Virus record (IMG/VR): IMGVR_UViG_2874945390_000009
DNA length: 50,212 nucleotides
Strand: one strand, 5' to 3'
Origin: a virus
Taxonomy: Duplodnaviria; Heunggongvirae; Uroviricota; Caudoviricetes
Shown here: positions 36,001 through 39,000 of the stretch, piece after piece
Layout: the number at the start of each line of letters is the position of its first letter
Numbering within the stretch: the stretch's first letter is position 1
Program-made: the position numbers

Positions 36001-39000
36001 TTCCGGTGAATATTCCTGTCGGGCAGAACGCGCTGGTGCAGACGCGTCAGCGGATGCGCCAATAGTGTTTTTACTCTCTGTAGTATTCTCTGAAGTAATC
36101 TCTGTTGTATTCTCTGTAAGATCGAAATTGGTTTTCCCTTCTCCGCGGTGAAGGCTTTCCCTCCTCCGCGAAATTGGGTTTTACAGTTTCCCGAAAACGG
36201 GTTTCCCCATTTCGGGAAAACTGATTGTTTTCATTGATAATTTCATTAAGGCGCTCACAATCTATACGGTAGAACATTTTGTGCTCAAGACGCTTGTTGG
36301 TTTCAACCAAAATGCCTCTGGACACAAGATGCTTACGCGCTACAGCCTGTTGTTCAAATGTAAGTCCGGTTTCGTGTTGTATCTCTTCACGCGTTTTATG
36401 TACGCCTTCCGCTGCATGTGCTTTATCCTGCCAGTAAAAAATCTGACCAAAGAAAATAACAGCGTGCGGACTTCCCATGTATTTAACGAGCCCAGGGTAA
36501 TAAGCAACCGGATGTCCAAAATCGAGCAGAAGATCAGACGGACGCATAGCCACCTCCCAGGCGTTTAAACATTTTTCCGGACTGAAACGCCACCAGCGGA
36601 TAACTCAGGGTATGAGTACGTCCCTGAACCTGGCAGACAACCTTCTGGCTTTCTGTATTGACCAGGCAAACCCGCAGAACGTGGCCGTTGCTGGTGGTGA
36701 ACCACTGCCCCACTCGGGGGCAACGGTTGTATCGGTGATACAGGGAATTAACGATGCGGCGAATCATGAACGCACCTCCTTGTCAGAACCATTCAGCCTG
36801 GAATCAACAAGTGCAGCACCAAAAACAGCATCACCTACACGGTCGTACAGTTTGCTGGCCAGCGGAGATTCAACAGCCTTAAGCATTGGGTAAAGCTGGC
36901 TTGTCCAGATTTGATGGATTTCACGCAAATGCAGGTATACGCCTCTGGCGTTTTGTGCGACAGATGACATGTCAGCCGCACCAGCTCCTGATAAGCTCCT
37001 CTCCATCTGGTTAAAGGCATTGATGTATGCCTCTTTGAACCGGGCGGCACGTTTACCAGTGAAGCCCATAGCAAGGAAGGCGAAGCCGTCGCGGGTGATT
37101 TGGTAGCAGGGAAGTTTGCGAGTACCGCCGTTGGGCTGGCGTACCAAAATTGATGTCTCCGCAAAATTGCGGGCACAAAACTCTGGAGAACAATCCAAAA
37201 TGCGGATCTTTTTCAGAACATCGTCATGACGTTTAGAGAAGAAGTTGGCAACAGCCAGGGATGAAGTAACAGCCTGACCATCAACGATGGCAATTTCAGG
37301 TTGAGTGAGGGTTGGGATCGTAGCCATGATGGCAGCCTCTTTGGTGATTTTTAATAACTCACCACCAAAGCTTCTCACGGCAATAGGTGGTGAGACGTAC
37401 AGGGGTGAGAAACCGGTCACCAAAGAACCCGGCCCAACCGAAGTTGGCCCTGCACGCCCCACCATAATTTGGGCGTAATGCTGCTCATGACACAAAAAAA
37501 CCGCAAGAGCGCGGTTGTGCGCTTTGGTGAATTCCGGGTTCTCACGCCCGGCACCCGCTTTATAAGGTGCGGAGACAGTGTAACGTCCCGAAATTGCAGA
37601 ATCAATATCAAAATGTTGTAGCTGTGGACAACGCGAAGCCTTGTTGTTATTGTTTACAACAAGAACCAGAGGAAGCTTTAAATGCCATCCAGACTGTATA
37701 AACAGTTCATCCGTAATCTCGGTGAATCTGAATACATACGAATCCGCATATGGGAAGTGGAGCCTGCTGTATTGGGTAGCCAGCACAACTACAAATACAG
37801 CATGGCTTATGTCGTTGATGGCATGTGTGTGATGCGTTACGACAACGAACGGGGTAAAGGCGATCACAAACACATTGGTAGTCAGGAAGTCAGCACCAGC
37901 TTTGTCACCATTGAACAACTGCTCGCTGATTTTCTGGCTGACGTTGAATCCATCCGCAGAGGTATCTGACATGAGAACCGTAACAATCCGAATCGAGTCA
38001 ATGGATAATTTCACGGCTGATGTGCTGTCTGCGTTCCAGGAAGCAGCTACCGGAGCAAAAGCAACCAGAGAAAACGTTATTTCATTTCCTGACTGGCAAA
38101 TGATGCATAAGGTACTGACACCAAAACGCATGGACATTCTGATGGCAATGACTGGTGCCGGAGAAATGTCCATCCGAAAAATTGCAGCCCTGGTTGGACG
38201 TGATGTAAAAAGCGTGCATACTGACGTGACCGCACTCATCAGCAACGGTTTACTGGAAAAAAGCGAGCGCGGAACGTCATTCCCGTATGACGACATCCAC
38301 TTTGATTTTACGCTGGGCAAGGCGGCGTAATTTTTCGTATATACCGTGCCGTCATTCCGGCGGCGCTTCACACTCCACAAAATCACGCCTGAACAACCAC
38401 AACGGGCTGAAACATTCATATGGATAACCATCACGCAGATAAATAACCCGCTGTGTTTCAGGCTCCCAGCGTATAACGTGGACGCGGCGCCCTCTGCCAT
38501 CACGGAACCAGCGATTGAGGACTTGCATAAATTACCCGTAAACATCGTCACACCTGCCAGCCAGTAGCCTGAAACAGGCCCATTCTCGGGTGATACCAGC
38601 GGGTACCACGCTGAACGGCACCACACATCATGTGATGAAACGCCTTCAGAAACGGTTCCACAGCAACAATTTCACGACGTGCCAGTAATCCATCTGGCGT
38701 CAAAAATTCATGAGTGTCTGTCGGGATGTTGTATGCATTTACAAGCGTGCGACATTTCGCATCTGACATACCGGTTTTTGCTTTCAGCTGGCGATATCCG
38801 GCATAGCCCTCACGAATGGTACCCTTTTTGATTTGCTCAACTGTTTCGGCAACATGGCTGACTTTTTCTTCCACCTGAGTGATCCGTTTCTGCTGGCGAA
38901 CGGCTTCAAGAGCCATCGCGGCAACCATTTCGATTTCGCTCATTGGCTTACGGATCTGTTCTTCCAGTTCGCGCCAGCGATCTACCAGGCGAGCAGTGAA

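What the first reader, a model, noticed from the sequence alone, without database searches (positions are those of the whole stretch)
37600..38330. Plus-strand two-gene module with promoter palindrome inside the replication operon (toxin-antitoxin-like)
A 95-aa gene and a tightly following 120-aa HTH gene lie antisense to the early-right operon, between a terminator and two Rha genes. Their putative promoter is overlapped by a 24-bp near-perfect palindrome (CTTGTTGTTATTGTTTACAACAAG), which suggests autoregulation by the HTH protein. The small-protein-plus-HTH layout resembles toxin-first type II toxin-antitoxin or abortive-infection cassettes. The first protein has an Rx4H-like stretch (RGKGDH), which is weak evidence on its own.
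Basis: partly seen in the sequence, partly recalled or inferred. Interest (0 to 1): 0.6.

Follow-up and report, generated by a model that had tools for sequence, protein, structure and literature searches.

The report
TumE toxin–antitoxin cassette in prophage
The two small plus-strand genes are a self-contained 750-bp toxin–antitoxin cassette of the recently described TumE family, carried as an optional extra by a lambda-like E. coli prophage and apparently switched off by its own DNA-binding partner at two conserved operator sites; it is a recognisable member of a known kind, not a new system.

Summary
Window 37682-37969 (+) encodes a 95-aa TumE-family protein (Pfam PF20126). One base later, 37971-38330 encodes a 119-aa winged-helix protein (Pfam PF25212, HVO_A0114). 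RefSeq already uses these names. An empty-site prophage shows that both genes sit on a 750-bp cassette, 37609-38358, with its own promoter and terminator. Other prophages carry a RelE/ParE+HTH pair or a ProQ/FinO gene at the same site.

The palindrome is real but is one of two operators, GTTG-N10-CAAC, 28 bp apart. O1 covers the -35 and O2 the -10. This motif is about 470-fold enriched upstream of tumE in 78 loci from several phyla. It covaries with residue 79 of the partner's recognition helix: V/I with GTTG, F with GATG. That is strong comparative evidence for autoregulation.

Toxicity is inferred from family only. The six validated TumE pairs are antitoxin-first and at least three have antitoxins too short to be this partner. 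The Rx4H (HEPN) idea and the antisense ORF are rejected. The 'terminator' belongs to an IsrK sRNA. The cassette lies back-to-back with the promoter of an isrK-C4-antirepressor module, and this linkage recurs in distant enterobacterial phages.

The parts
37609..38358 (+). Whole accessory cassette (moron): operators, promoter, tumE, tumA and terminator
   Evidence: In the empty-site prophage of E. coli RM10042 (L152), window 37000-37608 and 38359-38999 are joined with only 3 nt between them. The 77%-diverged copy in phage phiSTEC1589-Stx1c aligns to window 37613-38371. GC is 46.7%, against 50.7% for the window.
37614..37633 (.). Operator O1, TGTTGTagctgtggACAACg. Its right half overlaps the -35.
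   Evidence: Exact GTTG-N10-CAAC at 37615-37632. Homologous O1 sites in other loci embed TTGACA.
37625..37630 (+). -35 hexamer TGGACA of the cassette promoter
   Evidence: Promoter scan, 17-nt spacer.
37640..37663 (.). Its spacer holds the -10.
   Evidence: The centre-to-centre distance to O1 is 28 bp, the modal spacing across loci.
37645..37653 (+). Extended -10, TGtTATTGT. The transcription start is inferred near 37660.
   Evidence: Promoter scan. The start site is an inference.
37668..37675 (+). Shine-Dalgarno AGAGGAAG for tumE
   Evidence: Read from the sequence.
37682..37969 (+). tumE, 95 aa, putative toxin. Signature D54-N55-E56-x-G58-K59-G60-D61-H62-K63-H64-I65.
   Evidence: Pfam PF20126, E 2.3e-15. 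Invariant columns in the 30-sequence alignment. AF2 pLDDT 94.5. Substitutions against the 77% copy fall 14:8:38 by codon position.
37971..38330 (+). tumA-like partner, 119 aa, HVO_A0114-family winged-helix protein. Putative antitoxin and autorepressor. Recognition helix starts at R77-D78-V79-K80.
   Evidence: Pfam PF25212, E 6.5e-25. AF2 model with HTH helices 68-75 and 79-91. Foldseek finds MarR/ArsR/CggR-type wHTH proteins. Codon-position substitutions 14:12:56.
38308..38340 (+). Terminator-like hairpin plus T-run at the end of tumA
   Evidence: Terminator scan. Folding gives -10.6 kcal/mol with z -1.05, so it is weak.
37494..37570 (-). IsrK-like sRNA gene (neighbour, not part of the cassette). 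Its intrinsic terminator is 37516-37499.
   Evidence: Rfam RF01394, 63.6 bits against a gathering score of 50. Terminator scan.
37577..37605 (-). Inferred isrK promoter: -35 TTGATT at 37605-37600 and -10 TACACT at 37582-37577. It diverges from the cassette promoter.
   Evidence: Read from the sequence. Both hexamers are unchanged in L152-L154. This is an inference: the match (8 of 12) is below the scan tool's threshold.
37383..37469 (-). C4-type antisense RNA (neighbour)
   Evidence: Rfam RF01695, 83.4 bits against a gathering score of 45.
36764..37327 (-). Rha-family antirepressor-like gene downstream of isrK and C4 (neighbour)
   Evidence: Pfam PF09669, E 5.6e-27.
38352..38528 (-). DUF4222 gene (right neighbour). 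Its stop codon abuts the right junction of the cassette.
   Evidence: Pfam PF13973, E 3.3e-15. Junction sequences.

Best explanation
Window 37609-38358 is a self-contained 750-bp accessory cassette (a 'moron') in a lambdoid prophage. It encodes a toxin-first type II toxin-antitoxin pair of the TumE superfamily.

Shown here:
- Gene 1 is a TumE/DUF6516 protein and gene 2 an HVO_A0114 winged-helix protein.
- The two genes are always adjacent, in this order, across many phyla.
- The cassette has a sigma-70-like promoter. Its -35 lies inside operator O1 and its extended -10 inside operator O2.
- The operator motif (G[T/A]TG-N10-CA[A/T]C, two copies about 28 bp apart) is conserved, and it covaries with residue 79 at the start of the partner's recognition helix.
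- The cassette is absent from, or replaced in, otherwise similar prophages.

Inferred:
- Dimers of the winged-helix protein, alone or with TumE, bind O1 and O2 and block RNA polymerase, so the operon is autorepressed.
- The genes are translationally coupled (TGA-C-ATG).
- TumE is a growth-arresting inhibitor of translation, as shown for six other TumE proteins. Its conserved Asp/Glu/His cluster on one beta-hairpin is a possible catalytic or metal site.
- The winged-helix protein neutralises TumE by direct binding.
- In a lysogen, where the phage early promoters are repressed, the cassette is expressed from its own promoter. It then serves prophage maintenance, exclusion of other phages, or both.
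For: Family and annotation:
- Pfam hits are well above threshold for both proteins.
- RefSeq and UniRef already name identical proteins 'toxin-antitoxin system TumE family protein' and 'HVO_A0114 family putative DNA-binding protein'.
- For the TumE family, toxicity, neutralisation by the partner and inhibition of 35S-methionine incorporation were shown for six pairs (PMC10584680).

Conserved pairing:
- 80 of 80 genomic loci have the partner directly downstream on the same strand. These come from Proteobacteria, Acidobacteriota, Planctomycetota and Bacteroidota.
- 59 of 67 IMG/VR viral loci show the same arrangement.

Operators:
- There are 88 hits in 7.8 kb of upstream DNA, against 10 in about 420 kb of background, and only at spacing N10. 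34 loci have two copies, 21 of them exactly 28 bp apart.
- Specificity covariation in 116 non-redundant pairs: V/I79 goes with GTTG in 68 and with GATG in 0. F79 goes with GATG in 15 and with GTTG in 0. Y79 goes with a third site, ATGG-N9-CCAT.
- Some F-type proteins are closer to V-type proteins than to other F-type proteins.

Coding strand:
- Third-position substitution bias shows selection on the plus-strand frames.

Mobility:
- There is an empty site, and alternative cargo occupies the same site, including a toxin-first RelE/ParE+HTH pair in the same orientation.
- The cassette is in only 21 of 5426 complete E. coli genomes. It is 99.7-99.9% identical between prophages whose left flanks differ.
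Against: - Nobody has tested this subfamily. The six validated pairs belong to subcluster 1a, where the partner gene lies upstream.
- The synthetic antitoxin fragments in that study were 289-388 bp including the Shine-Dalgarno sequence and vector flanks. At least three of the six are therefore too short to be a protein of 113-119 aa.
- The AF2 model has six strands and one helix. The fold described for TumE has seven strands and two helices (PMC10584680).
- There is no significant match to known defence systems in PADLOC, and PHROGs lists both families as 'unknown function'.
- The plus-strand terminator is weak.
- DNA binding, antitoxin lability and toxin-antitoxin contact are all inferred.
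Confidence: 0.7

Rival explanations
1. The pair is a regulator rather than a toxin-antitoxin system. The winged-helix protein is an autoregulated transcription factor, and the small TumE-like protein is a non-toxic co-factor or sensor. Its real target could be the adjacent, divergently transcribed isrK-C4-antirepressor module, so that the cassette tunes prophage induction rather than killing cells.
For: - O1 begins 9 bp from the inferred -35 of the isrK promoter, and the two promoters are back-to-back.
- The arrangement antirepressor <- C4 <- isrK | O1-O2 -> tumE -> tumA recurs in 8 of about 16 distinct enterobacterial loci. Some of these share only about 52% TumE identity, and some have the other operator specificity.
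- This subfamily has never been shown to be toxic.
- The window TumE is a shorter version of the published fold.
Against: - The same gene pair and the same operators occur in many non-enterobacterial loci from other phyla. None of these were scanned with Rfam. This says the pair works as an autonomous unit.
- The distance from O1 to the isrK start varies from 47 to 58 nt, with no constant helical phase.
- The invariant D/E/H signature looks enzymatic rather than regulatory.
- The same site holds a bona fide toxin family, RelE/ParE+HTH, in another prophage.
- Six TumE-family proteins have been shown to be toxic.
Confidence: 0.15
2. The real gene is on the minus strand. On this view the 620-codon antisense ORF (36764-38626), or the N-terminally extended 317-aa 'Rha family' protein that PGAP annotates from 37717, is the coding sequence, and the plus-strand ORFs are spurious.
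For: - The minus-strand frame is open across the whole cassette in the window and in the 77%-diverged copy.
- PGAP extends the Rha gene to 37717. In three near-identical genomes (H1-H3) it does not list tumE under the match. The CFSAN029787 record has no CDS there.
- There is a Pfam Ash hit at residues 349-444 of the long ORF.
Against: - Both plus-strand ORFs have strong Pfam hits.
- Substitutions concentrate at plus-strand third codon positions.
- The antisense frame has 3-6 stops in L003-L008, and any antisense frame is fully open in only 4 of 80 loci.
- Permuting the sense codons gives zero antisense stops in 9% of trials, so the open frame can be chance.
- The extension has no canonical start codon in the window (ATT at 37717).
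- The stretch between the cassette and the Rha ATG is occupied by IsrK and C4 RNA genes that score well above Rfam thresholds.
Confidence: 0.02
3. Gene 1 is a HEPN-type RNase, with RGKGDH as its Rx4H catalytic motif.
For: R57-x4-H62 fits the Rx4-6H spacing, and H62 is invariant. An RNase activity has been proposed for TumE but not shown.
Against: - R57 is replaced by A or T in 3 of the 30 aligned homologues.
- The confident AF2 model (pLDDT 94.5) is a six-stranded beta-sheet plus one helix, not an all-alpha HEPN bundle.
- There is no Pfam HEPN hit.
Confidence: 0.03

Closest known systems
TumE-TumA toxin-antitoxin superfamily (DUF6516/PF20126; Durairaj et al., Nature 2023, PMC10584680)
   Same: Gene 1 matches the TumE Pfam model well above threshold. 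It forms a bicistronic pair with a DNA-binding partner. No solved structure resembles it. The same names are already applied in RefSeq.
   Different: In the validated pairs (subcluster 1a) the partner lies upstream, and the synthetic fragment lengths imply antitoxins of at most about 77-108 aa. A remote RelB homologue is reported for one cluster-1 partner. Here the toxin gene comes first and the partner is a 119-aa HVO_A0114 winged-helix protein. This TumE has 95 aa, six strands and one helix, against the published seven strands and two helices. No toxicity data exist for this subfamily.
Toxin-first type II systems with HTH antitoxins (HigB-HigA, MqsR-MqsA, HicA-HicB; from general knowledge)
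   Same: The gene order is toxin then antitoxin. The antitoxin carries the DNA-binding domain. Palindromic operators overlap the promoter.
   Different: There is no sequence or fold similarity between TumE and RelE/HigB, MqsR or HicA. The partner is a winged helix, not an XRE-type HTH.
RelE/ParE-toxin + HTH cassette at the same prophage site in E. coli A8 (NZ_CP028766, L153)
   Same: It occupies the same slot between DUF4222 and isrK, in the same antisense orientation and with the toxin first. It shares the right-end sequence CCGGAATGACGGC.
   Different: The protein families are unrelated. It is an alternative allele, not a homologue.
Phage morons (Hendrix's term for extra transcription units with their own promoter and terminator; from general knowledge)
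   Same: The cassette has its own promoter and terminator, sits between genes of a phage operon, has lower GC, and is absent from close relatives.
   Different: Nothing of substance. This is a description of the genetic context, not of function.
Gifsy-1 isrK-orf45-anrP locus (Hershko-Shalev et al. 2016, PMC4825925) and the P1 immI c4-icd-ant region
   Same: The left neighbour of the cassette has IsrK and C4 RNA genes followed by a Rha/antirepressor-like gene, in the same order.
   Different: This describes the neighbour, not the cassette. No TA cassette upstream of isrK appears in the locus description and abstract of that paper, which are the parts I read.

Membership tests
TumE / DUF6516 (Pfam PF20126) | Match to the family HMM above the gathering score | tested here: met
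   56.8 bits against 23.4, E 2.3e-15, covering profile positions 7-81 of 81. An identical protein is named a TumE family protein in UniRef and RefSeq.
TumE / DUF6516 (Pfam PF20126) | Alpha+beta fold with a seven-stranded antiparallel sheet packed by two helices, and no confident PDB match | tested here: inconclusive
TumE / DUF6516 (Pfam PF20126) | Conserved two-gene arrangement with a cognate partner | tested here: met
   80 of 80 genomic and 59 of 67 viral loci have the HVO_A0114 gene directly downstream.
TumE / DUF6516 (Pfam PF20126) | Toxic on expression, neutralised by the partner, inhibits translation | not testable with these tools
   This needs growth and metabolic-labelling assays. It has been shown only for six other pairs.
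Experimentally validated TumE-TumA type (subcluster 1a of Durairaj et al.) | Antitoxin gene upstream of the toxin, and a short antitoxin | tested here: not met
   Here the partner lies downstream and has 119 aa. The paper says DUF6516 is predominantly downstream of its partner in clusters 1, 2, 4 and 6. The synthetic antitoxin fragments of 289-388 bp, flanks included, are too short for three or more of the six to be HVO_A0114-type.
HVO_A0114 family (Pfam PF25212) winged-helix DNA-binding proteins | HMM match above the gathering score, and a winged-helix fold | tested here: met
   87.2 bits against 27.6. The AF2 model has an HTH at residues 68-91 plus a wing. Foldseek hits are MarR/ArsR/CggR-type wHTH proteins at E about 4e-3.
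Type II toxin-antitoxin module (generic) | Antitoxin autoregulates through operators that overlap the promoter | tested here: met
   This is comparative evidence only. Two operators cover the -35 and the -10. The motif is about 470-fold enriched at fixed spacing. There is perfect covariation between helix residue 79 and the operator half-site. Binding itself was not measured.
Type II toxin-antitoxin module (generic) | Patchy, mobile distribution | tested here: met
   There is an empty site and alternative cargo at the same site. The cassette is in 21 of 5426 E. coli genomes. It sits at a different position in phage phiSTEC1589-Stx1c.
HEPN RNases (Rx4-6H) | All-alpha HEPN fold with invariant R and H | tested here: not met
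   The model is a beta-sheet plus one helix. R57 is A or T in 3 of 30 homologues.
RelE/HigB-type toxins | Sequence or fold similarity to the RelE/ParE superfamily | tested here: not met
Catalogued anti-phage defence systems (PADLOC-DB 2.0) | Match to a defence-system protein model | tested here: not met
   TumE has only a 31-residue hit at E 0.045. The partner matches only the wHTH ends of the Csa3 and CasR models.
Phage moron | Own promoter and terminator, inserted between phage genes, absent from related phages | tested here: met
   Promoter and terminator scans. Exact junctions against an empty-site prophage.

The most novel reading that the evidence does not exclude
The cassette is wired into the prophage's induction circuit. 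The winged-helix partner bound at O1, which begins 9 bp from the isrK -35, would also control the divergent isrK-C4-antirepressor promoter. Antitoxin level would then gate antirepressor expression, or the antirepressor circuit would gate the toxin. On this reading the slot upstream of isrK is an exchangeable hotspot where lambdoid phages carry alternative toxin-first modules that act in phage-phage conflict.
Probability: 0.15. Interest if true: 0.65.

Novelty: new member of a known kind. Interest (0 to 1): 0.35.

Why it matters
The gene pair itself is ordinary: it is a TumE-family cassette that public annotation already names. The value lies in what the comparison adds.

1. It defines a large toxin-first TumE subfamily with an HVO_A0114 winged-helix partner. 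The profile search finds 1940 clusters at 50% identity. No member has been tested. The cassette is a natural E. coli example, ready for testing in a genetically tractable host.

2. It gives a concrete operator model: two G[T/A]TG-N10-CA[A/T]C sites over the -35 and the -10. It also gives a one-residue specificity rule (V, F or Y at position 79) that can be tested by simple swaps.

3. It identifies a slot in lambdoid prophages, directly upstream of the isrK-C4-antirepressor promoter, that carries interchangeable accessory cassettes.

4. It flags annotation errors that hide the toxin gene in several RefSeq genomes.

Tried and rejected
- **Antisense ORF.** Rejected on codon-position bias, stops in homologues and a permutation test.

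- **Ash-Rha fusion.** I briefly read the Pfam Ash hit, together with an 'ATTGA' overlap in the empty-site phage, as an Ash-Rha fusion gene translationally coupled to DUF4222 and split by the cassette. I dropped this once Rfam showed IsrK and C4 RNA genes filling that stretch. The conserved left flank starts at the isrK promoter.

- **HEPN / Rx4H.** Rejected.

- **Second TA pair.** A RelE/ParD pair is annotated in the near-identical strain CFSAN029787. It is not in the window, which is collinear with that strain only over about 33110-45710. For the same reason I make no claim about the integration site.

- **Literature.** No TumE work after 2023 is in the held library.

- **Sequences of the six validated TumE/TumA proteins.** I could not obtain them, so I could make no direct alignment with them.

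- **Other operator sites.** One further operator-like site in the window (38727-38746, 2 mismatches) is within chance expectation.
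Full report
**1. What is in the sequence**

Window 37682-37969 (+) is a 95-codon ORF. Window 37971-38330 (+) is a 119-codon ORF that starts one base after the first one's TGA. Both lie antisense to the surrounding minus-strand early genes. On the left is a Rha gene (36764-37327). On the right are a DUF4222 gene (38352-38528), a second Rha gene (38548-39297), a cro-like gene (39739-40011) and a divergent cI-like repressor (40139-40834). Replication genes, including a DnaC-like ATPase at 34773-35660, lie further left.

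It has two perfect 8-nt arms around a non-palindromic 8-nt spacer. A sigma-70-like site, TGGACA-17-TATTGT with an upstream TG, spans 37625-37653.

**2. What the proteins are**

Gene 1 matches Pfam TumE (PF20126, formerly DUF6516) at 56.8 bits against a cut-off of 23.4. Gene 2 matches Pfam HVO_A0114 (PF25212) at 87.2 bits against 27.6.

Identical proteins already exist in public databases. They are named 'toxin-antitoxin system TumE family protein' and 'HVO_A0114 family putative DNA-binding protein'. PHROGs holds both as families of unknown function. PADLOC has no significant match.

TumE-TumA was described by Durairaj et al. (Nature 2023, PMC10584680). Six gammaproteobacterial TumE proteins stopped E. 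coli growth and were fully neutralised by their partners. One of them reduced 35S-methionine incorporation. An RNase activity was proposed but not shown. I found no later work in the held library.

**3. How this pair differs from the validated ones**

In that paper DUF6516 is 'predominantly located downstream' of its partner in clusters 1, 2, 4 and 6. One cluster-1 partner is a remote RelB homologue, and the six tested pairs come from subcluster 1a. The synthetic antitoxin fragments were 289-388 bp including the Shine-Dalgarno sequence and vector flanks. At least the three 289-bp ones therefore cannot encode an HVO_A0114-type protein of 113-119 aa.

The partner model (pLDDT 83) has an N-terminal beta-alpha-beta unit, an HTH with helices at 68-75 and 79-91, a wing and a C-terminal strand. 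Foldseek finds only generic MarR/ArsR/CggR-type winged helices.

**4. The pair is a conserved unit**

A 30-sequence alignment of TumE homologues has G60, D61, H62, K63, H64 and I65 invariant. D54, N55, E56, G58 and K59 are nearly invariant. R57 is A or T in three sequences. That variation, together with the beta-rich fold, removes the Rx4H/HEPN idea.

A scan of one genome per species found 349 loci encoding relatives. In the 80 best, the HVO_A0114 gene lies directly downstream on the same strand in 80 of 80, usually within a few bases of the TumE match. These loci come from Enterobacterales, alpha-, beta-, gamma- and delta-proteobacteria, Acidobacteriota, Planctomycetota and Bacteroidota.

An independent set of 67 IMG/VR viral contigs gave 59 clear pairs. 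The rest were partial alignments or contig ends. A profile search of 1.84 billion representatives found 1940 clusters at E 1e-3 or better.

**5. The palindrome is one of two conserved operators**

The core GTTG-N10-CAAC occurs twice in the whole 50-kb window, at 37615-37632 (O1) and 37643-37660 (O2). O1's right half contains the -35. O2's spacer contains the extended -10.

Across 78 loci the same core occurs 88 times in the 100 nt upstream of tumE (11.3 per kb). It occurs 10 times in the remaining ~420 kb (0.024 per kb). Only spacing N10 is enriched. 54 loci have at least one copy and 34 have two. The two copies are 28 bp apart in 21 loci and 27-29 bp apart in 30. In the leader-bearing loci with two operators, including those with the GATG variant, the consensus is TGtTGTAaTcATTGACAaCA for O1 and TGtTGTTATtaTTTACAaCA for O2.

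Some lineages use GATG-N10-CATC instead. In 116 non-redundant pairs the residue aligned with V79 of the window partner predicts the operator perfectly. V79 is the first residue of the recognition helix, in the motif R77-D78-V79-K80.

| Residue 79 | GTTG operator | GATG operator | Other |
|---|---|---|---|
| V or I | 68 | 0 | 16 with no exact site |
| F | 0 | 15 | 1 with no exact site |
| Y | 0 | 0 | 12 in all; ATGG-N9-CCAT seen in several |

Some F-type proteins are closer to V-type proteins than to other F-type proteins, which suggests more than one switch. I take this as strong comparative evidence that the winged-helix protein binds these sites as a dimer and represses its own promoter. Binding was not measured.

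**6. It is a discrete, exchangeable cassette**

A chimeric query made from the two flanks found prophages where the flanks are contiguous. In E. coli RM10042, window 37608 and 38359 are 3 nt apart. The cassette is therefore 37609-38358, 750 bp.

At the same site, E. coli A8 carries a RelE/ParE toxin followed by an HTH protein, in the same antisense orientation. E. coli GB089 carries a ProQ/FinO gene. The TumE and RelE cassettes share the right-end sequence CCGGAATGACGGC.

The cassette is rare, present in 21 of 5426 complete E. coli genomes. Nine copies are 99.7-99.9% identical although their left flanks differ (Rha or 'ash'). Nine more are a 77% variant. That variant also sits antisense in the early-right operon of phage phiSTEC1589-Stx1c, but downstream of the replication genes, and it is annotated there as hypothetical. 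Cassette GC is 46.7% against 50.7% for the window.

**7. The minus strand**

The 620-codon antisense ORF (36764-38626) is not a gene across the cassette.

- Differences between the window and the 77% copy fall 14:8:38 (tumE) and 14:12:56 (tumA) by plus-strand codon position.
- The antisense frame has 3-6 stops in L003-L008, and any antisense frame is fully open in only 4 of 80 loci.
- Permuting the sense codons leaves zero antisense stops in 9% of trials.

Between the cassette and the Rha ATG (37327, preceded by AAAGAGG), Rfam finds an IsrK sRNA (37570-37494, 63.6 bits against 50) and a C4-type antisense RNA (37469-37383, 83.4 bits against 45). The 'terminator' at 37516-37499 is therefore the IsrK terminator.

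This left neighbour matches the Gifsy-1 isrK-orf45-anrP locus. There, read-through of the IsrK terminator and the short IsrK RNA control an antirepressor-like protein (PMC4825925).

A Pfam Ash hit on the long ORF covers these RNA genes. It probably reflects ORFs read across them, or an orf45-like reading frame.

PGAP extends the Rha gene to 37717, which is an ATT codon in the window. In three near-identical genomes (H1-H3) it does not list tumE under the match. The CFSAN029787 record, the only one of the three I inspected in full, has no CDS there.

**8. An unexpected linkage**

The conserved left flank begins 3 nt beyond an inferred isrK promoter (-35 TTGATT at 37605-37600, -10 TACACT at 37582-37577). 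Both hexamers are unchanged in three diverged prophages. The isrK and tumE promoters are therefore back-to-back, with O1 starting 9 bp from the isrK -35.

The same arrangement occurs in several other loci:

- the 77% variant, in L083 and L091
- L097, with 67% TumE identity
- Izhakiella (L106 and L010, 54%)
- Edwardsiella (L109 and L013, 52%, GATG type)
- L107, L108, and Erwinia (L014)

That is 8 of about 16 distinct enterobacterial loci examined. The distance from the O1 centre to the isrK start varies from 47 to 58 nt, so no constant helical phase is evident. This could reflect a long-lived recombination hotspot, or a functional link between the cassette and the antirepressor switch. I cannot tell which.

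**9. Verdict**

The cassette is a new member of a known kind.

- Its identity as a TumE/HVO_A0114 cassette is near certain.
- Autorepression through O1 and O2 is well supported by comparison.
- Toxicity and neutralisation are inferred from family membership and context. I put my confidence in the whole mechanism at about 0.7.
- The biological role (prophage maintenance, phage exclusion or induction control) is open.

Noticed in passing
window 37383-37570 (-): IsrK-like sRNA (37570-37494) and C4-type antisense RNA (37469-37383) precede the Rha gene. This arrangement resembles the Gifsy-1 isrK-orf45-anrP locus and the P1 immI region.
   Followed up: partly
window 37570-37682; also L083, L091, L097, L106, L109, L107, L108, L014: The TumE cassette lies back-to-back with the isrK promoter in 8 of about 16 distinct enterobacterial loci examined. 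This holds at about 52% TumE identity and with the other operator specificity. The distance from O1 to the isrK start is 47-58 nt. It could be a hotspot or a functional link; this is unresolved.
   Followed up: partly
window 36764-37717 (-); L001, L002, L152-L155: PGAP extends the Rha/'ash' gene upstream across the IsrK and C4 RNA genes and into whatever lies beyond, using an ATT start at 37717 in the window sequence. For three near-identical genomes (CFSAN029787, RMDEC364, VL46) tumE is not listed under the match. The CFSAN029787 record has no CDS there. The Pfam 'Ash' hit covers the RNA genes.
   Followed up: partly
homologues of window 37971-38330: Many database entries for the HVO_A0114 partner are named 'glycosyl transferase family 1'. 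This looks like a propagated mis-annotation of a 119-aa winged-helix protein.
   Followed up: no
L152, L153, L154 (site equivalent to window 37608|38359): The slot between DUF4222 and the isrK promoter is empty in E. coli RM10042. It carries a toxin-first RelE/ParE+HTH pair in strain A8 and a ProQ/FinO gene in GB089. The TumE and RelE cassettes share the right-end sequence CCGGAATGACGGC (hairpin at window 38348-38366).
   Followed up: partly
L018-L079 and other non-enterobacterial loci: In 32 of 78 loci operator O2 ends exactly at the tumE start codon (position -18), with a -10-like sequence in its spacer. This implies leaderless mRNAs there. The window and its enteric relatives have a ~20-nt leader with a Shine-Dalgarno sequence.
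   Followed up: no
L050, L077, L080, L124, L136, L139, L140, L143: A third specificity class: partners with Y at the position of V79 have ATGG-N9-CCAT repeats upstream instead of GTTG or GATG sites.
   Followed up: partly
L097 1145-3902 (-): One viral contig has four tandem isrK-C4 units upstream of its TumE cassette.
   Followed up: no
window 31371-31560 (-) and 31724-31796 (-): An STnc100 sRNA match (132 bits) and a tRNA gene lie in the late-region leader of the prophage.
   Followed up: no
window 37609-38358 (-) and L083 5041-5730 (-): The antisense frame is free of stops in both E. coli cassette variants despite 23% nucleotide divergence. The permutation test gives P about 0.09 for the window copy, so chance is adequate, but the two copies are not independent.
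   Followed up: partly
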